Under the pieces are notes generated by a model. It was not told the DNA's origin. It was given only the letters and a program-made list of their open reading frames with translations, and searched no databases. Shown here one piece after another: positions 1 to 13,134 of a stretch of 64,000 nt of DNA (positions are counted from its first letter, which is position 1; every line of letters starts with the position of its first letter). The stretch comes from Acidobacteriota bacterium (GTDB taxonomy: Bacteria; Acidobacteriota; UBA6911; RPQK01; JAJDTT01), in assembly GCA_965217775.1 (NCBI GenBank), contig CBDCJH010000002.1, forward strand, positions 160,001-224,000. The letters are read 5' to 3'. Both the position numbers and the translations under genes were made by a program.

Positions 1-536
1 ACGTCCGGTGAGCCGGGGACGGGCGGCATCCAGGTGTGCAGTTTGATGGCCTTGAAGCCGTCCCGCACCAACTCCTCCGAGAATTGCGCGTACTCCTGCG
101 GCGTGCTGAGACCCTCCGGGATGTCGTCGCCGGGATTGATGCTGGCGTAGGCCGGTATCCGGGTTCGCGCAGCGCCGATCATCTTGTACACGGGGATCTG
201 CAGACAACGTCCGGCCAAGTCCCAGAGGGCGCAGTCCACGTGGGAGATCACCATGTCGGGCAGCGAGTTGGTGAGTTTCTGCATGCGCCGCATCCGTTGC
301 CAGATCTGCTCCCGGAAGAAGGGGTCCTGACCCAGAAGGGCCGGCTTGATCCAGGAATCCACGATCTCCTGGGAAGGTCCGGCAAAAAAATAGCCCTCGG
401 CTCCCTCGTCGGTCCGGATCGTCAGCAGGTTGTTGATGGCCCAGTGCTCGGGTCCGGGATGAGGGTGGCCCTCGTAGTCTCTGTGCCACTGGGTCCGGTA
501 GCGGAAGGTGTCCACCCTGATGTCTGAGATCTTCAT
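1..536 (-). CDS. Mandelate racemase/muconate-lactonizing (enolase superfamily) protein, N-terminal part; runs off the window start
   Basis: Hand translation from ATG 536 (AGGAG upstream): MKISDIRVDTFRY...LLTIRTDEGAEG...ISHVDCALWDLAGRCLQIPVYKMIG...GFKAIKLH, with the typical D-x-ALWDL and KxK motifs. Confidence 0.85.
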   Translation of the reverse strand, partial: MKISDIRVDTFRYRTQWHRDYEGHPHPGPEHWAINNLLTIRTDEGAEGYFFAGPSQEIVDSWIKPALLGQDPFFREQIWQRMRRMQKLTNSLPDMVISHVDCALWDLAGRCLQIPVYKMIGAARTRIPAYASINPGDDIPEGLSTPQEYAQFSEELVRDGFKAIKLHTWMPPVPGSPD

Positions 537-609
537 TTCTCAACTCCTGGTTGGGGCGCCGGTCCGGGATGAGCCGGCAATTCTCTCTAGTGGTGCTTAA
601 ACGAAATAG

Positions 610-2052
610 TCAGGGGCGAAATCGAAACGCATAGATGCTCGCGTCCCGCAGGCGCACCCGCAACCGGACGGGTTTGCCGGAAAGGCCTGCGAGGTCGGGG
701 TTGGACTTCCATTGCACCACGCCGTCGATCCGGTCGCCGACCATGGGGGCGCAATCCTCCAACTGGAATCCCTCCAGCTTCCCCCCTTCAGCATCCTGGA
801 TTTCGACCTGTATGGAGCCTCCGCCGCTGGTCTTGTAGTTCAGCTCCAGTTCCTTTCCCTGGAAGAGAAGCGGCCGGATGGTGAATTCTCCCCAGCCTTC
901 GTAGGGGCCGTCCACCGAAACGAAGCCCTCGGCGCGAAGTGTGCAGCGCCGAATCCGGCTTTCCCGTTCCCGGAAGAGATCCGAGTAATAGAGCGAGAGC
1001 TCTCCGGGCCCGGTCTGGATCACGCCCTGTCCCACGATGGGATTGCGGTCCAGCCAGTTGCGCTCGTCCGGTCCCGGGGTGAGGAAGGGCTCCCGGTAAT
1101 TCCTCTCCCATTGGAGGCCGTCCCGGCTGTACGCGAACCGCACGTCGGAGAGGCCAGGATAGGGCGCCCCCGGGTAGGAACGGTCGGTGTACAGGATCAT
1201 GGGAAACATGAAGAATGCGGAAGCGGCCCGGGAATACTTGACGGCGGCGTTGGTGTAGAGGTGGAAGTCGGGAGGGTCCTGCTCGTCGGCGGTGAAGACC
1301 AGCTTCGGTTCGGTCCAGTGGAGAAAGTCGGAGGACTCGGACCGCCGGATGGCCCGGCGGCCGCCTTTGAACGGCCCGGGCACCGACGGATCGACCCCCC
1401 TGAGGTAGATGACGTACCGCTCCCGCTCGTCGTCCCAGAGCAGGATGTTGTGGCTGTCGAAGGGACCGTTGGACAACAGGGGGTTGGTCGCCACCGGAGT
1501 CCATCGGATCCCGTCGGGTGAGGCGAACCCGGAGATGCCGTCGACCCGGGAGATCATCTTGTAGCGGGTCCCACTGCCCGCTTCCCGATTCGGGTCCAGC
1601 AGGACGCTGATGTTGGTGAAGTCCTCCGGCGGCCCCAGGATATTGTTGTCCGTGGAACCCTCGAATTCATATCGCCCCAGACTCGGTTTCTCCCAGACGA
1701 TCCCGTCCCGGCTCTCAGCGTAACAGGTCAGCACCGTGTCCTCGGGTAAGTCCTCGCGAGGGTCCCCCAGGGCGACCCGGTACCACATGCGAAACGTCCC
1801 GCCGTCATCCACCACCGTGGTGTAGTGGAGGCTCTTTCCCTCCCAGGGACGATCGCACCGAATCACGGTCTCTCCGGGCGTGGGCCGGTGCAGGGTCAAT
1901 ACCACGTTGTCGCTGTGGTCGAACCAGGAGGCGTCCAGCAGCAACTGCCGCCTGCTCCCCACGTCGAGCGGCTCGCGGACTTCCGGAGGCGAGGTGCAGG
2001 CAGAAGGCGCCAGCAGACCGCACAGGAGCAGCAATTTCCAAACGTCTCGCAT
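610..2052 (-). CDS. Secreted or lipoprotein five-bladed beta-propeller glycoside-hydrolase-like protein (GH32/GH43-like)
   Basis: Signal/lipobox-like MRDVWKLLLLCGLLAPSAC; repeated S-x-DG-x-x-W boxes (SRDGIVW, SPDGIRW, SRDGLQW); start taken at ATG 2052. Confidence 0.7.
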   Translation of the reverse strand: MRDVWKLLLLCGLLAPSACTSPPEVREPLDVGSRRQLLLDASWFDHSDNVVLTLHRPTPGETVIRCDRPWEGKSLHYTTVVDDGGTFRMWYRVALGDPREDLPEDTVLTCYAESRDGIVWEKPSLGRYEFEGSTDNNILGPPEDFTNISVLLDPNREAGSGTRYKMISRVDGISGFASPDGIRWTPVATNPLLSNGPFDSHNILLWDDERERYVIYLRGVDPSVPGPFKGGRRAIRRSESSDFLHWTEPKLVFTADEQDPPDFHLYTNAAVKYSRAASAFFMFPMILYTDRSYPGAPYPGLSDVRFAYSRDGLQWERNYREPFLTPGPDERNWLDRNPIVGQGVIQTGPGELSLYYSDLFRERESRIRRCTLRAEGFVSVDGPYEGWGEFTIRPLLFQGKELELNYKTSGGGSIQVEIQDAEGGKLEGFQLEDCAPMVGDRIDGVVQWKSNPDLAGLSGKPVRLRVRLRDASIYAFRFRP

Positions 2053-2180
2053 GCTGTCAACCCTCCACGCCGGAGCGCCAAGTCTACTACGTCCGGGCGC
2101 AGAAAATGCAGGGCAATGGTCCATCCGCAAGACTACGGGGCTTGCGGATAGCCAAGTCGGATGCGGACAATGAACCGGAC

Positions 2181-3386
2181 ATGGAAGAGACTGTTCCAGA
2201 CCGCGGCGAAAGCGTCGGCTTGATGGAGCCGCTGCTCGTCAGCGACACGGCCAGGCACCGTTCCGGCCTGGGCGACCTCGCCGTCGATCTGGCTGCAAAA
2301 GCGGCCGGGCTGCGGCACAGTCTGCCAAGGGGAGTCGTCAGTTCGCTGGCCGATCTGGTGCGGGCAGTGAATTGCCATTACAGCAACTTGATCGAAGGTC
2401 ACGACACCCCTCCGGTCGACATCGAGCGTGCCCTCAACGATGACTACAGCACGGACCCGAAAAGGCACAATCTGCAACTTGAGGCCAAGGCGCACATTGC
2501 CGTGCAGACCTGGATCGATGAGGGCGGAGTCGACGGTCATGCCGTGACGGCAGAGGCCTTGCGCCAGATTCACAGACGGTTCTGCGACCTCGTTCCGGAT
2601 GATCTGCTTGGGCTGACCGAACCGCAATCCGGAGACCGGACCCGGTGCATTTCGGGGGAGTTCCGCACGCGGGACGTGCAAGTTGGCCGACATGTTCCAA
2701 TCAGCCCGGGCGCGATTCCGCGCTTCCTGGCCCGATTCGAGAGCGCCTACGCCAACCTGGGCAGGACCGACGCCATTCTGGCGGCCGCAACGGCCCATCA
2801 CCGCGTGCTCTGGATTCACCCGTTTCTTGATGGCAACGGCAGAGTCGCGCGGTTGATGTCCCATGCCGTGTTGCGTGAAACGCTGGATACCGGAGGCGTC
2901 TGGTCCGTGGCACGAGGCCTGGCCCGGAGTGAGGGCGCTTACAAGGCACATCTTTCCGCCTGCGACCAGTCCCGCCGCAACGACCTGGATGGACGAGGCC
3001 ATTTGAGTGAGGAGGCGCTGGCGGAATTCACGTCATTCTTCCTGACCACTTGCATCGATCAGGTCGAATTCATGGAGAGACTCATCCAACCGAACCGGCT
3101 GCGGGACCGTATCCTGGTCTGGGCTGAAGAAGGGGTCCGTGGGGAACGGCTGCCCCGGCACGCAGGCGCCGTGCTCGAGGCGGTCCTCATTCGGGGTGAA
3201 CTTCCCCGGGGCCAGGTGGGAAGGATCCTGGGCGTCGGCCGCCGCCAGGCCCGGCGGATCACCTCAGCCTTGCTCGACCGCGGCGTCTTGACCTCTGCAA
3301 ACACCCGCGCTCCATTCAGACTCGCTTTTCCGGCCACCCTCGCCCACCGCTGGATGCCGGGGCTGTTTCCGGAGAGGATGCTGTAA
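2181..3386 (+). CDS. Fic-domain protein with a C-terminal HTH-like region
   Basis: Canonical Fic motif HPFLDGNGRVAR; N-terminal SNLIEG motif. Confidence 0.9.
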   Translation: MEETVPDRGESVGLMEPLLVSDTARHRSGLGDLAVDLAAKAAGLRHSLPRGVVSSLADLVRAVNCHYSNLIEGHDTPPVDIERALNDDYSTDPKRHNLQLEAKAHIAVQTWIDEGGVDGHAVTAEALRQIHRRFCDLVPDDLLGLTEPQSGDRTRCISGEFRTRDVQVGRHVPISPGAIPRFLARFESAYANLGRTDAILAAATAHHRVLWIHPFLDGNGRVARLMSHAVLRETLDTGGVWSVARGLARSEGAYKAHLSACDQSRRNDLDGRGHLSEEALAEFTSFFLTTCIDQVEFMERLIQPNRLRDRILVWAEEGVRGERLPRHAGAVLEAVLIRGELPRGQVGRILGVGRRQARRITSALLDRGVLTSANTRAPFRLAFPATLAHRWMPGLFPERML

Positions 3387-3511
3387 CGGCGCTGTCGCTG
3401 AGGGCAATCCAACCCCGGGGTGAACTCGCGAGACGCTCGGTCCCGTTCCTGACTGCCAAGCCCGCTCCGATCGAGTTCGGGGTCTTTGGCGAAGGATTCG
3501 ATACCGGAGTG

Positions 3512-3718
3512 TCACGATTTCTCCATCGGTGTGTCCCAAAGTAGTCGAATCGGCACGACATAGAGCCGTTCACCAAACCGGGTGCACATCTCTCCGTCGT
3601 AGACGACCACACCTCCGGTGAAACGACTGCCCATTACCGCTTTCAGCTTGCGGAGGCCTCGGAAGTCTGCTCGGGTGACGGTTGCACCGGCCTTGATTTC
3701 CACTCCCGCACGCGCACG
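3512..3718 (-). pseudogene. 3' remnant of an AAA+/DUF4143-type ATP-binding protein gene
   Basis: GVEIKAGATVTRADFRGLRKL...GVVVYDG...LYVVPIRLLW matches the C-terminus of this family; homology ends at the repeat at 3721. Confidence 0.7.
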
Positions 3719-3720
3719 CA

Positions 3721-3747
3721 AGAAGGGGACAGTCTATTTCTACCCGG
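3721..3747. repeat. Direct repeat R1 of the cassette-like array
   Basis: AGAAGGGGACAGTCTATTTCTACCCGG. Confidence 0.9.
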
Positions 3748-3784
3748 ACATTCCTACCGCGCAGACTCCAGGTAAGTGCCGTGG

Positions 3785-4117
3785 TCACGCCTCGTCTGTA
3801 TGGACGCCTGTGTCAATTGGTCTCATGACATGCGTCCCTGGGGCGATCGGCAATTCACGTACGACCGCCCCGATACGCCGGGCAGTGACAGCGAGATCGA
3901 ATTGGGTCTGGAGGTTTAGCCAGAATTGGGGATCGACTCCAAACCAGTGACCAAAACGTAGGGCCGTGTCACCGGTCACGGAACGCTTGCCAGAGATGAT
4001 CTGACTAATTCGGTTGGGCGGCACCTTGATTTGGCGAGCGAATGACGTAGGCGTCACACCAAATTCGGCGAGTTCGTCTTTCAGAATCTCACCGGGATGA
4101 ACGACACGCTTCAACAT
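3785..4117 (-). CDS. higA: HigA-family antitoxin (HTH)
   Basis: HPGEILKDEL...RISQIISGKRSVTGDTALRF...FWLNLQ, directly downstream of a HigB-like toxin. Confidence 0.9.
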   Translation of the reverse strand: MLKRVVHPGEILKDELAEFGVTPTSFARQIKVPPNRISQIISGKRSVTGDTALRFGHWFGVDPQFWLNLQTQFDLAVTARRIGAVVRELPIAPGTHVMRPIDTGVHTDEA

Positions 4118-4137
4118 GTCTCACTTCCTCCTAGCTG

Positions 4138-4422
4138 CTAGTGATAGTCCACTATCTCGACATCGGTTGGACCCGGCACCCCGTCCGGCCACGTGAAGCA
4201 GATGCGCCATTTCCGATTAATCCTAATGGAATATTGACTGTCTCTCGTGCCTTTGAGGGCCTTGAGGCGATTGCTCCGCAAAGCTCTCAAGGTGTCCAGC
4301 GACGGTGCTGCGTTCAAGATTGAGAGTCGTTTCGCTGCCTGTTTTTCAAACCCATGAAAAGCCGCGACAAAAGCTCCACGGGCGAACTGCTCGGTTCTCC
4401 GATCCTGGTATCCGAGAATCAC
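4138..4422 (-). CDS. higB: HigB-like (RelE/ParE superfamily) toxin
   Basis: GTG start at 4422; LKALKGTRDSQYSIRINRKWRICFTW...VEIVDYH. Confidence 0.88.
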   Translation of the reverse strand: MILGYQDRRTEQFARGAFVAAFHGFEKQAAKRLSILNAAPSLDTLRALRSNRLKALKGTRDSQYSIRINRKWRICFTWPDGVPGPTDVEIVDYH

Positions 4423-4444
4423 AGCGGGTCCAGGGTATCCATTG

Positions 4445-4461
4445 TTGACGATGGACGTCAA
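4445..4461 (-). promoter_or_regulatory. Palindromic operator/-35 region of higBA
   Basis: TTGACG-N5-CGTCAA perfect inverted repeat just upstream of higB. Confidence 0.55.
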
Positions 4462-4493
4462 GCGTCAATGGACTAGTCGAAAGACGAGAGACA

Positions 4494-4519
4494 AGAAGGG
4501 GATAGTCTATTTCTCCCGG
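4494..4519. repeat. Direct repeat R2
   Basis: AGAAGGGGATAGTCTATTTCTCCCGG. Confidence 0.9.
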
Positions 4520-4671
4520 TCGGTCATCCGAGGTGGACGCAGCATTGGCAAAATTTAGACTGCCGTCGCCGCTGGGGCAATGGTGGTGAAGGGAAAAGCC
4601 TGAATGACCCGGTCTAACGTGCCGGGCTTCGGATGGGAGGTGAGCGAATAAAAGATGGACGCCGCCACGCG
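4520..4671 (-). pseudogene. Internal fragment paralogous to the DUF6338-like gene at 8282-8569
   Basis: Minus strand reads VAASIFYSLTSHPKPGTLDRVIQAFPFTTIAPAATAV*, versus LAASIFYSLTSHPKPGTLDQVIQALIFTAIGQAATAA at ~8400-8515. Confidence 0.85.
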
Positions 4672-4697
4672 AGAAAGGGACAGTCTACTTCTCCCGG
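4672..4697. repeat. Direct repeat R3
   Basis: AGAAAGGGACAGTCTACTTCTCCCGG. Confidence 0.9.
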
Positions 4698-4749
4698 TCT
4701 ACGAGGCGAAGCGGGTTCCAGGTCGTCTCGCGGGGCGCGAGAGGTGGCA

Positions 4750-5136
4750 TTACCAGATGCGGTTGACGCCGTACCGGTCGAAAAGCGTCTCGATCGACAC
4801 GAGAGGCAGGTCCAAGGTCAAGGCTTGCGCGATCAACATGCGGTCGAAGGGATCGCGATGCGGACCCGGCAGCCGCCCGGCGCGTTGTCCGTCATGGACG
4901 GTGATCGGCAGCTCTTGGAACCCTTGGCTCGCGATGCAGCCGGCCATGTCGAGCGCCGCGGCTTCGGCTCCCGGGAGTTTTCCGAGGCGATACTTCGTAG
5001 CGATCTCCCAGGCGGACGCGGCGCTGATGAGGATATCGTTCCCGGGTTCGGCGATGGTGCCGTGGGCAGCCGCGGACAAACGTTCGCTGCCGCCCAACCA
5101 CCATAGGAAGACATGGGTGTCGAGCAGAATGCGCAC
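4750..5136 (-). CDS. vapC: VapC-family PIN-domain toxin
   Basis: ILLDTHVFLW...SAASAWEIATK...HRDPFDRMLIAQA. Confidence 0.92.
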   Translation of the reverse strand: MRILLDTHVFLWWLGGSERLSAAAHGTIAEPGNDILISAASAWEIATKYRLGKLPGAEAAALDMAGCIASQGFQELPITVHDGQRAGRLPGPHRDPFDRMLIAQALTLDLPLVSIETLFDRYGVNRIW

Positions 5137-5141
5137 CTGGA

Positions 5142-5375
5142 TTACGACTCCCAGGCCGCCAGTTCGGCCTCCGGTAGCGGCTCGAAGAACCTGTCGTCGA
5201 CCACAACTCGGCCCTTCATGGCGCCGAACCGCCGGACACCTCGACTGTTCCCATAACGGACCAACCTCGCAATCGGTGTACCGTTGCGAGCAATCACGAC
5301 CTCTTCACCGGCCTCAACTCGCGCCAGCAGCCGGGAGAGATGGGTCTTGGCCTCATGTACGTTGACGACTGACAT
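5142..5375 (-). CDS. Phd/YefM-family antitoxin
   Basis: VNVHEAKTHLSRLLARVEAGEEVVIARNGTPIARL; AGGAG RBS upstream. Confidence 0.92.
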   Translation of the reverse strand: MSVVNVHEAKTHLSRLLARVEAGEEVVIARNGTPIARLVRYGNSRGVRRFGAMKGRVVVDDRFFEPLPEAELAAWES

Positions 5376-5410
5376 GGTCGGACTCCTTTGACAACAGCCT
5401 CAGCTTTGGT

Positions 5411-5448
5411 TTAGCTAATTGTATGACTAAGCAGTCGGCTCGCGTCAA
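5411..5448 (-). promoter_or_regulatory. Probable promoter/operator of the phd-vapC module
   Basis: Minus strand TTGACG (5448-5443) and TACAAT (5423-5418), with a long 19-bp spacer; palindrome TTAGCTAA at 5411-5418. Confidence 0.45.
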
Positions 5449-5501
5449 GCTCTTGGAGCGATTTCCCCGCCCCTTCCGGCAGCTTCCCTGGCAGAAGGGC
5501 G

Positions 5502-5525
5502 AGAAAGGGACAGTCTACTTCTCCC
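5502..5525. repeat. Direct repeat R4 (3' end truncated)
   Basis: AGAAAGGGACAGTCTACTTCTCCC. Confidence 0.9.
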
Positions 5526-5846
5526 ATGCTTGAAGGTCGGCGATCTCAATGTCCGCAAGCGGCTGCTGATCCATGTATGCGGTTTCAACCTGGGGTTGCT
5601 GATGCGCCACCTGACGGGGGTCGGCACGCCCCGGAGTCCCCAGGGCCGCGTCTGGGCGCGTCCTTTTACGGTTTTTTGGACCCCAAGGGGCCGTTGGATC
5701 GGCTGGAATCGCCTACTGGGGCGCTTCTGGGCGTCGACCCGGCACGATTCGCTGTTTTGGGCTCCCGGAGTCCATCACTAGGCCATCTCAACGTCAGCGT
5801 TCGAAAAGAATATTAACCCGCGAAATCAGGATATTTCCACGGGCTG
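5526..5846 (+). mobile_element. Remnant right end of an IS1182/IS5-like element
   Basis: Transposase C-terminal peptide NVRKRLLIHVCGFNLGLLMRHLTGVGTPR; terminal TTTCCACGGGCTG (5834-5846) followed by GTAG. Confidence 0.65.
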
Positions 5847-6283
5847 GTAGCCAGTCCAGTAGTTCCAAAATCGGGTAGTGTACCAGTTTGGGGCAGTCAG
5901 TCCATAAGTCCAACGGCCCCGTTCCGCATCCTCCATCCGCTAGTCTCCTGCCTGTTACTCCCAAATAAATGTCGTCACACTTATTCTAGACGACGATCGA
6001 CAGATCGGCTATGCGCCTAGCAGACTTCCCATTCATGATAACAACCTCCGTCTTTTTCACGAACCCAAACGGAGGAGTTTTCAGACACATCCTGAGCTGC
6101 ATGGTGTGCCGCTTCTATGTGTGGTCCTCTGCGTTCTCAAACTCTTCTGGCTAAATGTCATGTCCACCAAATCATGAGCGCAACAACTTTGTGTTGATCG
6201 GTGTTCTTGGACCAGATGACGGTGATGGTCAACTCCAAAGCCACGGAAAGCGCTACGGATGGGCCGTTGTTGCGAGGGGGTAA

Positions 6284-8281
6284 CCCAGATTATTCATCAT
6301 GCAAACATAAAATGGGAAAGCGTTCCCGCCATGTCGAGTCGGATCAGAGGGTTACGGGATACCCACAGAAAAAGGTCGAGAGCCGCCGTGGGTGAAACGC
6401 TATCGTGGTTTTCGACTCCGCCTTAATCTTTGGGTTCAGAGGGGTCCGAAACCCTCGCATTTCCAAGGTTTTCTCCCCTTCCATGGGCGGCAAAAAGAGG
6501 CGGCGTGCCCGTCATTTGTGGTATAGTTATGGTGTTACAAAAACAACCACAATAAACGGAGCACGCCACGCCTGAGACGATACCGCAGATCCGGCCCTCA
6601 TTCAACCGATCCCTCCGCCTCGAGACCCGCCCCGAGTTGCTCAGTGCGGACACGGGCGCTCTGGTGCAACGGGAGCTGATGGATCGTAGCGGCCTCATCG
6701 ACTGGTTGACCGAGCGGTTGCACGATCCGCGACACCCGAGTTCGATCCGCTATCCGCTGTCGGATCTGCTGCGGACTCGACTCCTGCTGTTGGGGCAGGG
6801 CTGGCGCGACCAGTCTGACGCCGACCGCCTGCGTCAGGATCCGAGCTTGCGGGTGGCGAGCCAGACCCGTCGGGGCACGGCGGCCTTGGAGGAGGGCACC
6901 GGGCTGGCCTCACAGCCGACCTTGTCCCGACTACTGGACACGCTCAGCCGGAAGGAGAACCTTCCGGTCCTGCACCAGGCGGTGACGGAGTTGGCGTGCC
7001 GTCGGATCGAGATGATCGAAGGCCGGCGGCGAAGACGGGGGAAAAAGACCCCACGGAAGAAGAGACGGAAAAAGACGATGTACCTGGACGTGGACGGTCT
7101 CCCGGTCGAGGTCCATGGGCATCCCCCGGGAAGCGAATGGAACGGATACTATCGCCAGCGGATGTACCACGGGTTGGTGGCGAGTTGTGCCGAGACGGGG
7201 GACCTGATCGACGGGGAGATTTTTCCGGGAGCCAGCTACCTGGGGAAGAAGGCGCTGAAATTGACGCTCCGGGTGGTGGACCGCTGTCGGGGGCGTCTGT
7301 GCGGCTCGATGATCGTGCGGATGGAATGCGGGGTTCCCGGAGCCGGGGCTGCTGAAGGGGCTGGAGTCGAGAAGCGTGCCCTATATCGCTCGAATCCGCA
7401 AGAATGAGGTCCTGAACCGGATGGCGAAGCTCTACTTGACCCAACCGGCGGGGCGGTCCCCGAAAGCACCACCGAGGCTCTGGTTCCATGAGTTGACCTA
7501 CCAGGCGGGGACGTGGGATCGGGCGCGCCGGGTGGTGCTGGTGGTGCGGGAGCGACCGGGGGAGTTGTATCTGGATCATTTCTGGTTGCTGACGAGCCTG
7601 AGTCGGAAACGATACGAGGCTCAGGAGTTGCTGGCACAGTATCGAAAGCGGGGGAAGGCGGAAGGCCACATGGGGGAGTTGATGGACGTGCTCGATCCGG
7701 CCTTGTCCTCCGCGAGCCGGCCCAAGACGCACTATCGGGGCAAACCACTGAAGCCGGGAGCCAAGCCGGAAGCGAGGACCGAGGCCGGGGTTCGCCCCCA
7801 CAACGAAGTCTTGTTCCTGCTGAATCTGCTGGGGTACGAGATCCTGCACCTGGGTCGGGTGCTGATGGAGCAGGCGACGCGTCGGGGCTGGAGTCTGCGT
7901 CGTTTTCGTGAGCGGGTGTTGCGAGTGGCGTCTCGGGCGCTGCGCCAGGGGAGGCGATTGATTTTCGTCATCAGTCAAGGGGCGACAGACTGGAAGCGGT
8001 TGTGGAAGAGCCTGGCGCGGGTGTCCTGGGCGCCGGCATAGTGGACGGCGGAGGCATCGGGCCCGTGGAAGAGACCGAAACGGTGGGAATTTCTCACCGG
8101 AAAGTCAACCTGTCGGCGGATGACGGTCCCTCTGGCCGGTAAACGGTTTATGACTGGTTCAATCGTCCTGTTTTTGAGCCGATTCAGTCGAATCGACAGA
8201 GCTTCAAGAGAAACTGGGCTGCGACCGCACGAAAACGCCGGGTCGGAAGCCCTTATCAACATGTTCCATGAATAATCTGGG
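6284..8281 (+). mobile_element. IS1380-family insertion sequence (defective)
   Basis: Perfect 14-bp terminal inverted repeats CCCAGATTATTCAT (6284-6297) and ATGAATAATCTGGG (8268-8281) around a DDE transposase; no target-site duplication visible. Confidence 0.88.
6568..8041 (+). pseudogene. IS1380-family transposase, frameshifted
   Basis: LSADTG, LASQPTLSRL, LDVDG, NGYY, YRKRGKAE motifs; an extra A near 7325 (ATGGAATGCGGG in place of ATGGATGCGGG, MDAG) splits it into ORFs 6637-7407 and 7376-8041; the likely start codon after GGAG reads ACG. Confidence 0.85.
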
Positions 8282-8569
8282 CGAAATCGCTGCCGCTGCC
8301 AACCCAACGACGATCGCGACGAAGACAGACAAGACCAATTGCAATTCATAGTATTTTGTCCACTGAGGATGCTCCCATATCAGGTTGAATATTAAGAGGA
8401 GCGCCGCCGTAGCCGCCTGTCCAATAGCGGTGAAGATTAGAGCCTGAATGACCTGGTCGAGCGTGCCGGGCTTGGGATGTGAGGTGAGCGAATAAAAGAT
8501 GGATGCCGCCAGAATACCCGGCAGAAGAAATACGAGTACGCCAATCACCTCACTGGATGTCCAACTCAT
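8282..8569 (-). pseudogene. DUF6338-like membrane protein, 5' part truncated by IS1380
   Basis: MSWTSSEVIGVLVFLLPGILAASIFYSLT...; the frame runs into the IS end at 8281. Confidence 0.6.
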
Positions 8570-9014
8570 GCTCGCTTAACCTCAAGAGCTATGGCTTACG
8601 ACGCATCCCAGCGGTCGACGAAGGTCGATGACGATTCGTAAACAACACTAGCCACTTGTCAATATGGCGTATTCTATCAGTCGCCACGGCCAACACCCCG
8701 ATCGCACCAAATCGCTCAATGGCCTTGGAAAGGCCCTCGTCGCCGATGTGGGCTCAGACTTCGACAATTCGATGCCGCCGTTGTGCGAGCGGCTCGTCCA
8801 ACGGAAAAGGTTGTCATCCCACGTAACGGCAGGAGTTGAGAAGGCGCGAAGGAAATCGTATTTCTGCGGCTTTTCGGCGGGGGCATCCCTGCCCACTTGG
8901 TGCCGTCTCCATCTTGGTCTTGTGAGCTACAAGACCGACCGTCACTATAGAAGGCAATGGTGGTTCCGCCAGGGATCGCGAACCCAGTAGCTGACGGCGT
9001 CCGGAAGGAGACCG

Positions 9015-10106
9015 ATGATGCACGGAGCGTGGACTCTCAAATGGCTTGGGGTTGTCGTTTTTCTTCTGGCAACCGCAGCTTGGCCCCGTGGCGCCATCTT
9101 CGGCGGCGCGGGGATGGAGGGGGCAACCGTCGAACCGGTGCGGTTGATCTACGACACCGACATGGGAAACGACATCGACGACGCCCTGGCGCTCGGCGTC
9201 ATCCATGCGCTTCAGAGCCGGGGAGAATGCCGGTTGCTGGCGGTGACCGTCAGCAAGGACAATTTCTTTGCCGCCGCCTACTGCGATCTCCTCAACCACT
9301 TGTACGGGAGATCCGGGATTCCCATCGGGATAGTGCGAAACGGGCCGACACCGGAGGACGGCCGATACGTTCGCCAAGTCTGCGAGGCCAGGGATCAGGG
9401 CAGGCTGCGATATGCACGATCTCTCAAGCGTCCCGGCGACGTCGAGGAGGCCACCGCGTTGCTGCGGCGCACGTTGGCGAGTCAGCCCGATCATTCGGTG
9501 ACCGTGGTCCAGGTGGGTTTCTCCACCAACCTGGCCCGTCTGCTCGATTCTCCCCCCGACCGGTACTCCCCGCTTCAAGGAAAAGATCTGGCGGCCAGGA
9601 AGATCCGCCTGCTCTCCGTGGTGGCAGGCAGCTTCGGCCAACCTGGGCCGAAGGATGGGCGCGAGTACAATATCTACAAGGATCTGCCGTCCGCGCGGAA
9701 GCTTTTCGACGCTTGGCCCATGCCCATCGTTGTGAGCGCCTACGAGATCGGGGCGTCCATCCTCTACCCCGGAGAGCGCATGCGGCAAAGTGACGACGGC
9801 GCCGGGCGCCATCCCATCCGCGAGGCGTACCGGTTGTATGTCCCGAGCCTTCCCGACCGGCCGACCTGGGATCTGACCAGTGTCCTTTACGCAGTGCGCC
9901 CCGGCCGCGATTACTTCCGAGTCTCGGCACCGGGGGAGGTGATCCTTGATCCGGTAGGCCGAACCCGTTTCAAGCGGGGCGGCCACGGGCGCCATCGGCA
10001 TCTGAAGATCGATAATCGGCAGGTTCCGCGAATCCGTGAACTGCTTGTGGAACTGGTGGAGCATTCACCACAATCCGCGCTCGGTTCTCCGGCTCCGGTG
10101 CACTGA
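9015..10106 (+). CDS. Secreted nucleoside hydrolase (IU-NH family)
   Basis: LIYDTDMGNDIDDALAL motif, TNLARLL, EYNI, WDLTSVL; N-terminal signal peptide. Confidence 0.85.
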   Translation: MMHGAWTLKWLGVVVFLLATAAWPRGAIFGGAGMEGATVEPVRLIYDTDMGNDIDDALALGVIHALQSRGECRLLAVTVSKDNFFAAAYCDLLNHLYGRSGIPIGIVRNGPTPEDGRYVRQVCEARDQGRLRYARSLKRPGDVEEATALLRRTLASQPDHSVTVVQVGFSTNLARLLDSPPDRYSPLQGKDLAARKIRLLSVVAGSFGQPGPKDGREYNIYKDLPSARKLFDAWPMPIVVSAYEIGASILYPGERMRQSDDGAGRHPIREAYRLYVPSLPDRPTWDLTSVLYAVRPGRDYFRVSAPGEVILDPVGRTRFKRGGHGRHRHLKIDNRQVPRIRELLVELVEHSPQSALGSPAPVH

Positions 10107-11671: not shown

Positions 11672-13134
11672 GATCCACACTCCTTCTCTTGCTGGCCGTG
11701 CTCCTTCCGGGAGCCGCATGCGTCCGGACCGCGGCGCCACCCGAACGGCAGCCGAGCCTGCCGATTCCGGAAGGATGGGATTCGGAAGCGGCGGAGGAGG
11801 GAACGGTCGACGTCCATTGGTGGAAACAGTTTCAGGATCCGCAATTGGATGCGTTGATCGAGGAAACGCTCCGCCACAATCCTCAACTTCGGGCCGTCGC
11901 CGCCCGCTTGGAGACGGCCCTTATCGAGGCCCAGATCGCCGGTGCCGACCGGATTCCATCGGTTGGACTCAGCTTGAACGGGCGCCGTCAGCGGCAAAAC
12001 TTCATCGGTTTTCCCATCCCCGGTTTCGAGGGCCGGGTGCCGCGCGCCACCTTCACCAACCTGGGCGCCTCCCTGGACATCAACTGGGAGGCGGACCTCT
12101 GGGGAAGAATCCGCAGCGGCGAGATACAAACGGGTGCTCTCGCCTCCGCACATGCAGCGGATCTGGCGGCGACGAGGCATTCGCTGGCGGGCCAGACGGC
12201 CAAGGCTTGGTTCGCCTGCTCGGAGGCAAGTCTTCAGTTGGCTCTTGCCCGTGAGACGGTGGCCAGTTTTGAAGCGACCTCCCAATGGCTCCGAAACCGC
12301 TTCGAGGCGGGTCTCGGACCGGCCGTGGAAATCAGTCTGGTCCAGGCAGACATTTCTACCGCTGAATCTGCCGTCCATCTCCGCCGCGAGCAATTGGACC
12401 GCGGCATACGCCAAGTCGAACTCCTGGTCGGACGCTATCCTTACGGGGAGCTGCAAGTTCGGGAGAGCCTTCCCCAGGTTTCCTCCGGCGTTCCGGCCGG
12501 TGTCCCCTCCCAGCTTCTGACGCGCCGACCCGATCTCATCGCGGCGCAGCGGCGTCTGCTGGCCTCCGATGCCGGAATCGTCCAGGCTCAAACCGCCCTG
12601 CACCCTCGACTGAGTCTCACCACGGCCGGTGGAACGGCCACCAAATCGCTGTTGAGCCTGTTGAATGGGGACTACGCCGTCTGGAGCCTGCTGGGCAACC
12701 TGGTTCAGCCCCTCTTTCAGGGAGGGCGCCTCAAGCGTCAGGTCGACATTGCCCAGGGCCAGTCCCAGGAAATTCTGGAGACCTACGCTGGTGCTGTCCT
12801 GCAGGCCTTCGGCGAGGTTGAGACGGCCCTTTCGGTTGAAAGTTTCTTGCGAGATCGGCTGCGTGAACTGGAAAAATCAGTCGTGGAGGCCGAAACGGCC
12901 CGGGCCCAGGCCCAGTTTCGCTATCGCTATGGCCTGGGGGATATGCTGGTGGTGTTGCAGACGGATCGTCGGATCCTCAACTCCAAGAGTCAGATCCTGA
13001 CCCTGCAACGCCTGCTGCTGGAAAATCGGATCGATCTCCACTTGGCGCTGGGAGGCGGCTTTGAACCGGGCGCCCCGCCAAGTGCCCCGGGAGCACTTCT
13101 CCCGGTGACTCTCACCGGAGAGAATGGCAATTGA
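11668..13134 (+). CDS. Outer-membrane efflux lipoprotein (NodT/TolC family)
   Basis: ATGA overlap with tetR; lipobox GAAC; WWKQFQDPQL, WEADLWG, PSQLLTRRPDL, LALGGG. Confidence 0.9.
   Translation: MRSTLLLLLAVLLPGAACVRTAAPPERQPSLPIPEGWDSEAAEEGTVDVHWWKQFQDPQLDALIEETLRHNPQLRAVAARLETALIEAQIAGADRIPSVGLSLNGRRQRQNFIGFPIPGFEGRVPRATFTNLGASLDINWEADLWGRIRSGEIQTGALASAHAADLAATRHSLAGQTAKAWFACSEASLQLALARETVASFEATSQWLRNRFEAGLGPAVEISLVQADISTAESAVHLRREQLDRGIRQVELLVGRYPYGELQVRESLPQVSSGVPAGVPSQLLTRRPDLIAAQRRLLASDAGIVQAQTALHPRLSLTTAGGTATKSLLSLLNGDYAVWSLLGNLVQPLFQGGRLKRQVDIAQGQSQEILETYAGAVLQAFGEVETALSVESFLRDRLRELEKSVVEAETARAQAQFRYRYGLGDMLVVLQTDRRILNSKSQILTLQRLLLENRIDLHLALGGGFEPGAPPSAPGALLPVTLTGENGN

What the first reader, a model, noticed from the sequence alone, without database searches (positions are those of the whole stretch)
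3512..5846. Cassette-like array: four ~26-bp direct repeats delimit TA modules and truncated genes, with no integron, dif or CRISPR signature
Seen: AGAARGGGAYAGTCTAYTTCT(A)CCCGG occurs at 3721, 4494, 4672 and 5502 in the same orientation. The segments between repeats are 746 bp (complete higBA with its operator), 152 bp (gene fragment) and 804 bp (complete phd-vapC with its promoter). All of these, and the DUF4143 remnant left of R1, are on the minus strand. Homology of the DUF4143, DUF6338-like and IS fragments stops within a few bases of a repeat. Known: integron arrays and pdif modules also carry TA units, but this repeat lacks attC RYYYAAC/GTTRRRY ends and XerC/XerD arms, and the spacers are too long and irregular for CRISPR. 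From memory (unverified), GGGG[AT][CG]A[GC] motifs occur beside some Y1/HUH RAYT-like transposase genes, and R1 contains GGGGACAG. Inference: the repeat is a recombination or cleavage site that lets a trans-acting enzyme capture, stack or delete DNA modules. This is the best candidate here for an undescribed system.
Basis: partly seen in the sequence, partly recalled or inferred. Interest (0 to 1): 0.82.

Follow-up and report, generated by a model that had tools for sequence, protein, structure and literature searches.

The report
Solo repeats of a Y1 transposase family
The four repeats are scattered copies of the inverted repeat that flanks a multi-copy tyrosine (HUH/Y1) transposase gene of a described but untested kind, and in this genus such copies mark the edges of DNA segments that are duplicated, shuffled or missing between strains.

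Summary
Four same-orientation copies of a ~26-30 bp motif lie at 3721, 4494, 4672 and 5502, against 0.01 expected by chance. They bracket higBA, a 152-bp gene fragment and phd-vapC.

The motif is not local. RRAARGGGACAGTY occurs 157 times in this genome and its reversed control 0 times. Copies are mostly intergenic and clustered in same-orientation arrays.

A 311-aa HUH/Y1 protein has 11 paralogues in the genome. Its model is closest in fold to E. coli TnpA(REP). All 11 genes have the motif upstream, and 10 of 11 have an inverted copy downstream.

Motif and protein lineage co-occur across 41 genomes. A sister genus has a diverged protein with its own motif variant.

This matches the published "TIRtron/TIRYT" class (Y1 subclass 2.1, TIR consensus GGGGWSAS). 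It is therefore a new member of a known, experimentally untested kind, not an undescribed system.

The cassette idea is partly supported. Homology blocks end at motif edges about 4-5 times more often than controls. Motif-bounded units are duplicated or permuted between species. Contigs of related strains lack "R2 + fragment", and a 3.3-kb block ending at R4.

No excision or insertion event was observed, and action of the Y1 enzyme on the motif is inferred.

The parts
3717..3746 (+). R1, a solo copy of the TIR-like motif (CGCAAGAAGGGGACAGTCTATTTCTACCCGG). It lies downstream of higA.
   Evidence: Degenerate or intact motif copies sit at the same place in G008, G001 and G002. A 10-bp indel at 3707-3716, directly 5' of it, is seen in contigs of 4 runs.
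4490..4519 (+). R2, a solo motif copy, 33 nt upstream of the higB start codon.
   Evidence: It is absent, together with 4475-4667, from one contig in each of 4 runs. A motif sits at the same place in G002 and about 50 bp further out in G008.
4668..4697 (+). R3, a solo motif copy, downstream of vapC.
   Evidence: The right edge of the 193-bp indel lies 4 nt 5' of its 14-mer. G006, which has the phd-vapC module, has no copy here.
5498..5526 (+). R4, a solo motif copy, 127 nt upstream of the phd start codon.
   Evidence: An identical copy occupies the same place in G006, where homology ends at its 3' edge. The 5526->8862 joint in contigs of 2 runs starts at its 3' edge.
3785..4461 (-). higB (4138-4461) and higA (3785-4117), a toxin-antitoxin module between R1 and R2.
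   Evidence: Pfam HigB-like_toxin 40.9 bits and HTH_3 25.4 bits. The module is found at 82-89% identity in other contexts in G001, G002, G005 and G008.
4562..4667 (.). Gene fragment between R2 and R3. It is an 84% copy of window 8406-8511, which lies inside the DUF6338-like ORF.
   Evidence: Self-BLAST. G007 matches 4559-4669 at 90% inside its counterpart of window 8282-8985.
4750..5375 (-). phd (5142-5375) and vapC (4750-5136), a toxin-antitoxin module between R3 and R4.
   Evidence: Pfam PIN 56.4 bits and PhdYeFM_antitox 41.4 bits. The module is present at 77% identity with an R4-like motif in G006.
3512..3721 (-). Short ORF or gene remnant left of R1.
   Evidence: No Pfam family at E<=0.01, and only a chance-level hit at E<=5. 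The DNA 3498-3710 is conserved at 90-94% in G004, G007 and G008, next to the conserved block.
5547..5849 (.). A ~300-bp repeated element that starts about 20 nt after R4.
   Evidence: Five further full-length or near-full-length copies and one 58-bp partial match in G000 at 77-84%, none next to a motif. Many copies in relatives.
6281..8282 (+). A ~2-kb insertion sequence with a DDE_Tnp_1_4 transposase split into two ORFs. It is part of the 3.3-kb block that related strains lack.
   Evidence: Pfam. Multi-copy in G000 and relatives. The 5526->8862 joint is.
8204..8569 (-). Truncated DUF6338-like ORF, the source of the fragment at 4562-4667.
   Evidence: Pfam DUF6338 E 1.8e-4, 21.6 bits, below the cut-off. 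Self-BLAST.
2106..3386 (+). Fic-domain gene bordering the array. It sits at a different position in four relatives.
   Evidence: Pfam Fic 62.7 bits. In G001, G004, G005 and G008 it lies on the other side of the conserved block window 1-2094.

Best explanation
R1-R4 are solo copies of the terminal-inverted-repeat motif of a RAYT-like HUH/Y1 tyrosine transposase family. This is the 'TIRtron/TIRYT' kind, most likely Y1 subclass 2.1 (RAYT group 1). The enzyme is encoded elsewhere in the genome by 11 diverged paralogues and would act in trans.

Shown: the motif family, its physical association with the Y1 genes, its lineage-specific co-occurrence with them, and the coincidence of motif edges with the ends of duplicated, permuted and strain-variable segments.

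Inferred: the Y1 enzyme recognises the conserved GGGGACAGTC core with short flanking arms. It nicks and rejoins DNA beside it, probably on single-stranded DNA during replication, as TnpA(REP) and IS608 TnpA do. This would spread the motif and make each copy a preferred breakpoint. Segments lying between copies, here two TA modules and a gene fragment, would then be duplicated, moved or lost as units. The window locus is a variable hotspot between two conserved blocks in which such motif-delimited segments have accumulated.
For: (1) Family. The strict pattern gives 157 copies against 0 for the reversed control. Only 26 of 157 lie inside crude gene calls that cover 86% of the genome. 97 of 156 neighbour gaps are <=3 kb (about 11 expected), and 73 of those 97 pairs share orientation.
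(2) Enzyme. tblastn finds 11 full-length 311-aa paralogues at 83-90% identity. The protein scores 37 bits on Pfam Y1_Tnp. Its only NCBIfam hit is REP_Tyr_transpos, at 50.7 bits. An HxH motif (HFHF, HFHL in one copy) and the YVELN tyrosine are kept in 11 of 11, and 10 of 11 are intact. Median dN/dS is 0.35. The AF2 model has pLDDT 83, and its top Foldseek match is 4ER8, TnpA(REP) bound to a REP hairpin, at E 5e-6.
(3) Architecture. All 11 genes have a sense motif copy 127-298 bp upstream. Ten of 11 have an inverted copy 1091-1250 bp from the start codon. DNA homology among the copies decays near those sites.
(4) Co-occurrence. The motif has 29-157 copies in all 9 genomes of the genus and 81 in G023 of another family. 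These are the 10 genomes whose best Y1 homologue shares 79% identity or more with the query; the other genomes have 0-9 motif copies. Sister-genus homologues at 53-54% identity are flanked at the same distances by a variant, GGGGACAGACTGT. That variant has 25-47 copies in all 6 sister-genus genomes, 0 in eight genomes of this genus and 1 in the ninth.
(5) Literature. The published TIR consensus GGGGWSAS is met by GGGGACAG (passages).
(6) Breakpoints. 61 of 157 motifs have a paralogue-block end within 35 bp. Random intergenic sites give 12.1+-2.9 and shifted sites 15.1+-3.6. The ends pile up at -20..-1 and +25..+34. Motif-bounded units are duplicated (L060 2328-3749 = 8572-9992 at 90.8%) or abut motifs (L061 7424-7799 = 12184-12558 at 98.4%). 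Segments are permuted between species with junctions at motifs. Contigs of related strains show joints 4474->4668 (4 of 4 runs, 2 studies) and 5526->8862 (2 of 4 runs, 2 studies).
Against: No biochemical or read-level evidence shows that the Y1 protein binds or cuts the motif.
No empty site was found within the genome: 0 pairs.
No circle or excision junction could be sought, because the public runs are held only as contigs.
Hairpin potential is weak. The mean DNA folding energy is -3.99 against -3.14 kcal/mol for shuffles, and the window's subtypes give -1.0 and -3.0. Only the ACCTTCT subtype folds well, at -10.7. An IS608/REP-type hairpin recognition is therefore not evident.
The junction offsets fall in a range, not on one fixed base.
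The 193-bp indel does not equal the R2-R3 period of 178 bp. It is not a simple site-to-site exchange.
The roughly 60 copies of the 'GTCAC' subtypes flank no Y1 gene in this genome.
The NCBIfam score is below the curated cut-off of 80 bits.
The C-terminal 142 residues match no Pfam family, so the subclass 2.1 assignment is not proven.
Gene calls are crude, and clustered copies are not independent observations.
Confidence: 0.78

Rival explanations
1. The motif copies are passive. They are short dispersed repeats, left by past TIRtron activity, that host processes use as breakpoints. Candidate processes are RecA recombination between 25-30 bp repeats, replication slippage, and template switching at protein-bound or weakly structured sites. 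No present-day Y1 catalysis would be needed.
For: Direct-orientation arrays with local subtypes fit unequal exchange and local duplication. So does the duplicated unit that includes both bounding motifs. The Y1 paralogues are old, with median dS 0.19. No empty sites or circles were found.
Against: The 193-bp indel differs from the 178-bp repeat period and shows no microhomology ('both' = 0). Several junctions join a motif edge to non-repeated sequence with variable far ends. Homologous exchange between repeats does not produce that. Ten of 11 Y1 genes are intact and under purifying selection.
Confidence: 0.3
2. The motif is chiefly a regulatory or structural site, such as a binding site for a nucleoid or HTH protein, a terminator or an mRNA stabiliser. 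Its association with Y1 genes would be secondary.
For: It is strongly intergenic, 131 of 157. One subtype is a near-perfect palindrome with a stable hairpin. Regulatory roles are recorded for REPs (background passage).
Against: There is no preference for gene 3' ends. In tandem intergenic regions 26 of 54 copies lie nearer the upstream stop. Copies occur in 17 convergent and 17 divergent regions, and the orientation bias is only mild at 35:19. No T-run follows the motif. No Rfam family matches 3000-6500. Motif variant and Y1 lineage are reciprocally specific, including a probable horizontal transfer into G023.
Confidence: 0.1
3. The array is an integron-like, pdif-like or CRISPR-like structure served by a tyrosine or serine recombinase or by Cas proteins.
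For: Same-orientation repeats delimit small modules that include TA pairs.
Against: The conserved unit is only about 26-30 bp. It has no RYYYAAC/GTTRRRY ends and no XerC/XerD-type arms. Spacings of 152-804 bp are irregular. The gene found flanked by inverted motif copies in 10 of 11 cases is the Y1 gene. The 6 other facing (+ then -) pairs hold no Y1 gene; recombinase genes were not searched for.
Confidence: 0.03

Closest known systems
TIRtrons / TIRYTs (Di Nocera et al. 2013, PMC3733652), equated with TnpA-Y1 subclass 2.1 (Quentin et al. 2018, PMC6006769) and RAYT group 1 (Bertels et al. 2017, bioRxiv 10.1101/119735)
   Same: A RAYT-like HUH/Y1 gene longer than classic RAYTs. It is flanked by inverted repeats rather than GTAG-tagged hairpins. 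The upstream repeat carries GGGGWSAS (here GGGGACAG). Copies of the repeat are dispersed in the genome as singles, pairs and clusters. The family is patchy and partly horizontally distributed.
   Different: Copy numbers are high for the class. There are 11 gene paralogues, whereas the papers describe low copy number for class 2. There are 157 motif copies, against 'moderately abundant' TIR families and about 12 for group-1 flanking 16-mers. The downstream repeat type reads AGGGACAG, not GGGG. The C-terminal extension shows no detectable HTH or DnaA-like Pfam match. Motif copies form long same-orientation arrays at the edges of shuffled segments, a feature absent from the passages of these papers I read. 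Their supplements could not be seen and may bear on this.
REP / REPIN-RAYT systems (REPtrons; E. coli TnpA(REP), PDB 4ER8)
   Same: The closest solved fold. The gene is flanked by inverted copies of a short repeat that is dispersed in intergenic space. Repeat and enzyme lineage co-vary. Copies cluster, as in BIMEs.
   Different: There is no 5' GT[AG]G tag. Palindromy is weak or absent in most subtypes. Close pairs are mostly direct, not inverted REPIN doublets. The enzyme is multi-copy and about twice as long.
IS200/IS605 elements and ISCR/IS91 rolling-circle elements
   Same: These use HUH chemistry. In ISCR/IS91, adjacent DNA is captured with one fixed end and one variable end. That is analogous to motif-abutting gene fragments whose far ends vary.
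   Different: IS200/IS605 ends are same-strand subterminal hairpins around a transposase of about 130-150 aa. ISCR/IS91 use Y2 enzymes and ori/ter ends. None of these features is present here, so the likeness is functional analogy only.
Chromosomal integron cassette arrays / CALINs
   Same: Same-orientation short sites punctuate small, often TA-bearing, strain-variable modules.
   Different: There is no attC structure or sequence ends and no integron-integrase association. The site is one third to one half the length of an attC. The associated enzyme is a HUH/Y1 nuclease.

Membership tests
TIRtron/TIRYT (Y1 subclass 2.1) | Protein with the HUH motif and catalytic tyrosine of the Y1 (IS200-like) fold | tested here: met
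   Pfam Y1_Tnp 37.3 bits against a cut-off of 23. HFHF (HFHL in one copy) and YVELN are kept in 11 of 11 paralogues. Foldseek top hits are 4ER8, then IS200, IS608 and ISDra2 transposases.
TIRtron/TIRYT (Y1 subclass 2.1) | Gene flanked by terminal inverted repeats instead of GTAG-tagged REP hairpins | tested here: met
   A sense copy lies upstream in 11 of 11 genes. An inverted copy lies downstream in 10 of 11, within the 700-bp flanks examined. No conserved GT[AG]G sits next to the motif in the position table.
TIRtron/TIRYT (Y1 subclass 2.1) | TIR carries the GGGGWSAS / GGGG[AT][CG]A[CG] consensus | tested here: met
   The copy nearest the start codon reads GGGGACAG in 9 of 11 genes and AGGGACAG in 2 (cp8, cp10). 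The downstream type reads AGGGACAG. The consensus is taken from passages read. The paper's figure lists upstream TIRs only, according to its legend.
TIRtron/TIRYT (Y1 subclass 2.1) | C-terminal extension with HTH-like similarity (Bac_DnaA_C, HTH_23 or HTH_28) | tested here: inconclusive
   An extension of about 130 aa beyond the Y1 core is present and modelled as mostly helical. Residues 170-311 match no Pfam family even at E<=10. A profile search of PDB sequences gives only a chance-level hit.
TIRtron/TIRYT (Y1 subclass 2.1) | Class 2 tyrosine signature Y---NP | tested here: inconclusive
   The sequence reads Y-V-E-L-N-A. The Y and N are kept, but A replaces P in all 11 paralogues.
Canonical REP/RAYT (REPtron, REPIN) | Stable imperfect palindrome with a 5' GT[AG]G tag | tested here: not met
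   Mean folding energy is -3.99 against -3.14 kcal/mol for shuffles. The window subtypes give -1.0 and -3.0. There is no conserved tag.
Canonical REP/RAYT (REPtron, REPIN) | Single-copy RAYT with repeats mostly as inverted doublets | tested here: not met
   There are 11 paralogues. Of 33 neighbour pairs <=200 bp apart, 29 are in the same orientation.
Integron cassette array | attC sites (R''/L''/L'/R', 55-140 bp) and an intI gene with attI | tested here: not met
   The conserved unit is about 26-30 bp and lacks RYYYAAC/GTTRRRY ends. A search for intI was not run.
CRISPR array | Regularly spaced repeats with short unique spacers | tested here: not met
   Spacers are 746, 152 and 804 bp and contain whole operons.
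IS200/IS605 | Same-strand subterminal LE/RE hairpins around a ~130-150 aa TnpA, with or without TnpB | tested here: not met
   The flanking copies are inverted. The protein is 311 aa and closest in fold to TnpA(REP). The only NCBIfam hit of the 311-aa protein is REP_Tyr_transpos, with no transpos_IS200 hit.

The most novel reading that the evidence does not exclude
The Y1 (TIRYT) enzymes and their dispersed motif form a HUH-driven cassette system. A segment lying between two same-orientation motif copies would be cut out and re-inserted beside another motif copy, or copied with one fixed end at the motif. Accessory modules such as TA pairs, Fic, AbiE and gene fragments would then be captured, stacked, duplicated and lost at hotspots. 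This would be a functional analogue of integrons or ISCR elements, built on a domesticated-looking RAYT relative whose role has never been tested experimentally.
Probability: 0.25. Interest if true: 0.75.

Novelty: new member of a known kind. Interest (0 to 1): 0.5.

Why it matters
TIRYT / subclass 2.1 proteins are, according to the 2018 survey, the second-largest Y1 subclass (14.9% of strains). In the full-text library only two works (three records) use the name TIRYT, and the passages I read from them report no experimental function.

This genus offers an unusually rich natural system for testing what these enzymes do. It has up to 12 gene matches and 157 cognate sites per genome. A sister genus carries a one-base-shifted site variant. 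One case looks like horizontal transfer. Strain polymorphisms end at the sites.

If the enzyme does act at these sites, it would explain how TA and defence modules are shuffled in these genomes. It would also give RAYT group 1 a concrete role. If it does not, the repeats remain useful markers of rearrangement hotspots.

Tried and rejected
Terminator or promoter reading: rejected. There is no positional bias toward gene ends and no T-run.

Hairpin/REP reading: simple column pairing and mutual information gave a blurred signal. Folding showed weak structure except in one subtype. I built no covariance model.

Replication-strand bias: only a weak, non-independent trend, so it was dropped.

Empty sites within the genome: none found with megablast HSP pairs.

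The idea that the repeated elements after R4 and after the L060 motif carry the motif as their own end: rejected. Their other copies lie far from motifs or are truncated at different points.

Single-sequence and profile searches of PDB sequences found no relative. The fold search did.

Rfam search of 3000-6500: no match.

Literature search for the 10-mers returned only unrelated primer-type hits in its listing.

The joint 4697->9129 (side 27, 'between: not known') and the joints inside vapC/phd (sides 21-30) are too short to interpret. They probably come from a motif copy or paralogues in other organisms, and I do not use them. Parts of the stretch without contig cover are not interpreted.

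Supplementary files of the papers were not available. They may list planctomycete TIRYTs, the subclass profiles or the TIR sequences.

Rows dropped. In one search, 51 motif copies within 1.6 kb of Y1 genes were excluded, leaving 106 of 157. In one search, neighbour segments shorter than 250 bp, longer than 3.5 kb or containing a Y1 gene were excluded. Pfam was run on 29 ORFs: 27 from 57 such segments, picked by hand from the arrays for which loci had been fetched, and 2 from a longer segment of the L060 array. It is not a random sample.

Full report
OBSERVATION. The four repeats are real. Shuffles give 0.01 expected matches, and 0 of 100 reach four. The alignment shows a conserved core of about 26-30 bp with unrelated flanks. 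The minus-strand ORFs between the repeats are a HigB/HigA pair and a Phd/PIN (VapC) pair by Pfam. The 152-bp segment holds an 84% copy (4562-4667) of an internal part of the ORF at 8204-8569. That ORF is only weakly DUF6338-like, at 21.6 bits and below the cut-off. The DUF4143 label for 3512-3721 was not confirmed.

THE MOTIF IS A GENOME-WIDE FAMILY. The window is C2:160001-224000 of a 6.43-Mb, two-contig genome. With up to 3 mismatches the 21-mer has 121 matches, against 0 for the reversed control. The invariant part is GGGACAGTC, and the information content spans about -6 to +18 around it. A strict pattern, RRAARGGGACAGTY, gives 157 copies against 0 for its control. Only 26 of the 157 fall inside crude gene calls that cover 86% of the genome. 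The copies are clustered. Of 156 neighbour gaps, 97 are <=3 kb where about 11 are expected, and 73 of those 97 pairs share orientation. Each array has its own sequence subtype.

THE ASSOCIATED ENZYME. A Pfam Y1_Tnp search of the genome found three loci, one of them about 300 bp from two motif copies. That ORF of 311 aa (C2:2626206-2627141) has two motif copies upstream in sense and two downstream in antisense. tblastn then found 11 full-length paralogues at 83-90% identity. All 11 have a sense copy 127-298 bp upstream, of the type RAGAAGGGGACAGTCT[AG]TTTT. Ten of 11 have an inverted copy 1091-1250 bp from the start codon, mostly of the type CGGAAAGGGACAGTCTCGATTCC. DNA homology among the 11 units runs from about -185 to +1060 and decays near the repeats.

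The protein matches Pfam Y1_Tnp at 37 bits. Its only NCBIfam hit is REP_Tyr_transpos, at 50.7 bits and below the 80-bit cut-off. The HUH and tyrosine motifs are kept in 11 of 11, and 10 of 11 are intact. Median dN/dS is 0.35. An AlphaFold2 model has mean pLDDT 83. Its best PDB match is 4ER8, E. coli TnpA(REP) bound to a REP hairpin, at E 5e-6, followed by the IS200, IS608 and ISDra2 transposases. Some database homologues are named 'REP element-mobilizing transposase RayT' by their source. The C-terminal 142 residues match no Pfam family.

CO-OCCURRENCE ACROSS GENOMES. Among 41 genomes (this one plus 40 relatives), the motif is abundant in all 9 genomes of the genus (29-157 copies) and in G023 of a different family (81 copies). 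The remaining genomes have 0-9 copies. The ten abundant genomes are those whose best Y1 homologue shares 79% identity or more with the query. They show 3-12 matches each, and G023 has two full-length genes at 79%. This suggests transfer of gene and motif together into G023.

The sister genus has homologues at 44-54% identity and essentially none of this motif. Its genes are flanked at the same relative distances, -203 to -217 and +193 to +256 inverted, by a variant, GGGGACAGACTGT. Flanking repeats of this kind were seen in 5 of the 6 loci examined; the G028 locus had none. The variant has 25-47 copies in all 6 sister-genus genomes and 16 in G031. It has 0 in eight genomes of this genus and 1 in the ninth. 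Motif variant and enzyme lineage are thus reciprocally specific.

WHAT IS KNOWN. I read passages of three papers. Di Nocera et al. 2013 (PMC3733652) describe RAYT-like genes flanked not by REPs but by TIRs. They name them TIRtrons and TIRYTs. Many of these TIRs share GGGGWSAS, and some form 'moderately abundant' dispersed families organised in dimers or clusters. Quentin et al. 2018 (PMC6006769) equate TIRYTs with their subclass 2.1. These are long proteins with a C-terminal HTH-like extension and no REP-like hairpins nearby. The authors quote the consensus GGGG[AT][CG]A[CG] and state that class 2 genes have low copy number. Bertels et al. 2017 (bioRxiv 10.1101/119735) call the corresponding set RAYT group 1. 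It is the group most like an IS, with flanking 16-mers repeated about 12 times.

A full-text search finds the words TIRYT or TIRtron only in these two works, in 3 records. A search for the 10-mers of the motif lists only unrelated papers. The supplements were not available.

NOT A CLASSIC REP. There is no conserved GT[AG]G tag. Folding is weak: the mean is -3.99 against -3.14 kcal/mol for shuffles. The window's subtypes give -1.0 and -3.0, and only the ACCTTCT subtype gives a strong hairpin at -10.7. Close pairs are mostly direct, 29 of 33 at <=200 bp. The enzyme is multi-copy. There is no preference for gene 3' ends, and only a mild antisense bias of 35 to 19 in tandem intergenic regions. The replichore bias is weak. 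Rfam finds nothing in 3000-6500.

DO THE COPIES DELIMIT MODULES? Within the genome, 61 of 157 copies have the end of a paralogous block (>=150 bp, >=75% identity) within 35 bp. Random intergenic sites give 12.1+-2.9 (maximum 22), and sites shifted by 150-600 bp give 15.1+-3.6 (maximum 26). For the 106 copies not next to Y1 genes, block ends pile up at -20..-1 and +25..+34 relative to the 14-mer.

The window locus is a variable hotspot between two conserved blocks, window 1-2094 and about 9000-10000. G003 has only about 390 bp there. G006 has phd-vapC with an identical R4-like motif, after which homology stops. G002 has motif-higBA-motif. In G001 and G008 higBA lies elsewhere, with degenerate motif copies at the corresponding edges. 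The Fic gene sits on the other side of the left block in four species.

Two other arrays show the same behaviour. In L060, 12 copies all share one orientation. A unit 'motif-oxidoreductase gene-motif' (2328-3749) is duplicated at 8572-9992 with 90.8% identity, and blocks shared with relatives start or end at motifs. In L061, a 98.4% copy of 12184-12558 lies between two motifs. G002 and G003 have one motif or none where this genome has about 5.9 kb of motif-delimited segments. In G007 the segments are permuted.

The content of the segments is mixed accessory material. It includes TA or defence-type genes: HigBA, Phd-VapC, two Fic genes, AbiEii/AbiEi and an AAA_21 ATPase. It also includes an oxidoreductase, an enolase-superfamily enzyme, an HTH regulator, a protease and DUFs. 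Of the 29 ORFs scanned, 15 have no Pfam match. The link to TA modules is therefore not exclusive.

STRAIN POLYMORPHISM. Six public runs from two studies hold 41-60% of the sampled words of 3400-5900, all kept as contigs. Four of them were laid on 1500-9500.
- One contig in each of the 4 runs joins 4474 to 4668, with the shorter side 30-181 nt. These strains lack 193 bp made of 18 bp, R2 and the fragment. The right edge lies 4 nt 5' of the R3 14-mer.
- Contigs in 2 runs, one from each study, join 5526 to 8862 with 12 other letters between them and the shorter side 124 nt. These strains lack the 3.3-kb block holding the IS, starting at the 3' edge of R4.
- All 4 runs show a 10-bp gap at 3707-3716, directly 5' of R1.

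The 193 bp differ from the 178-bp R2-R3 period and show no microhomology. The event is therefore not a simple exchange between the two repeats. These are assembled contigs, one per run. They show that such forms exist, not how they arose.

MECHANISM, WITH ITS STATUS. Shown: the motif family, its association and co-variation with the Y1 lineage, and the coincidence of motif edges with the ends of duplicated, permuted and polymorphic segments. Inferred from the established chemistry of HUH/Y1 enzymes (TnpA of IS608 and ISDra2, and TnpA(REP)): the enzyme recognises the GGGGACAGTC core, nicks and rejoins DNA next to it, probably on single strands at the replication fork. This would both spread the motif and make every copy a breakpoint.

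Open question: whether whole segments between two copies are mobilised by the enzyme, which is the novel case, or whether host recombination and slippage merely exploit the repeats, which is the first rival. Against an active system, I found no empty site in the genome and no single fixed junction base. I could not look for circles.

VERDICT. The repeat is very probably the cognate site of a trans-acting HUH/Y1 enzyme. It does mark module boundaries and strain-variable indels. It belongs, however, to a described class (TIRtron/TIRYT, RAYT group 1, subclass 2.1) and is not an undescribed system. It is a new, unusually expanded member of that class.

Noticed in passing
window 6281-8282: A ~2-kb insertion sequence with a DDE_Tnp_1_4 transposase. 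In the window the transposase is split into two overlapping ORFs (6637-7407 and 7376-8041). At least 10 copies at 91-97% identity exist in this genome, and many more in G006.
   Followed up: partly
window 5547-5849: A ~300-bp repeated element at 77-84% identity. It has five further full-length or near-full-length copies and one 58-bp partial match here, and many in relatives. Other copies lie next to the 2-kb IS, so it may be an accessory end or a companion element of that IS.
   Followed up: partly
G000:C2:5635244-5635945 and C2:4665597-4666268: Two further, shorter RAYT-like Y1 genes of 233 and 223 aa. They score 70 and 78 bits on NCBIfam REP_Tyr_transpos. No GGGACAGTC-type motif lies nearby, and their own repeats, if any, were not sought.
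   Followed up: no
G000:C1 (144 kb) versus C2 about 5.168-5.227 Mb: Several motif copies on contig C1 have identical 40-nt contexts, in inverted order, in C2. Examples are C1 68158 / C2 5225279, C1 91665 / C2 5201726 and C1 116938 / C2 5177296. C1 may be a second copy, as a plasmid or an excised form, of a chromosomal region. This may relate to the 7.5% 'contamination' figure.
   Followed up: no
G023:C1:1.42-1.49 Mb: Very dense tandem clusters of the motif in a genome of another family. One has 14 copies in 1.5 kb and another 17 in 2.2 kb. They lie next to two Y1 genes 79% identical to this genome's, which looks like a horizontally acquired and locally amplified system.
   Followed up: partly
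G000:C2:4256141-4257213 and C2:4741160-4742624: Two loci have the TIRtron geometry, with facing 'TCGATTC' and 'TATTTTT' motif types 1.07 and 1.46 kb apart. They hold a Fic/DOC gene with a small upstream ORF, and a ClpP-like SDH serine protease gene, instead of a Y1 gene. These may be cargo-carrying non-autonomous units.
   Followed up: partly
window 19031 (C2:179031) and C2:5686986: A different, perfect hairpin, GGGGGACA-GTCT-TGTCCCCC, lies 31 nt after a gene call. It looks like a terminator-type stem-loop that shares the GGGACAGTC string by chance or by descent.
   Followed up: no
window 2106-3386: The Fic-domain gene lies between the conserved left block and the array in this genome and in G007. 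In G001, G004, G005 and G008 it lies on the other side of that block, so the Fic gene itself has moved.
   Followed up: partly
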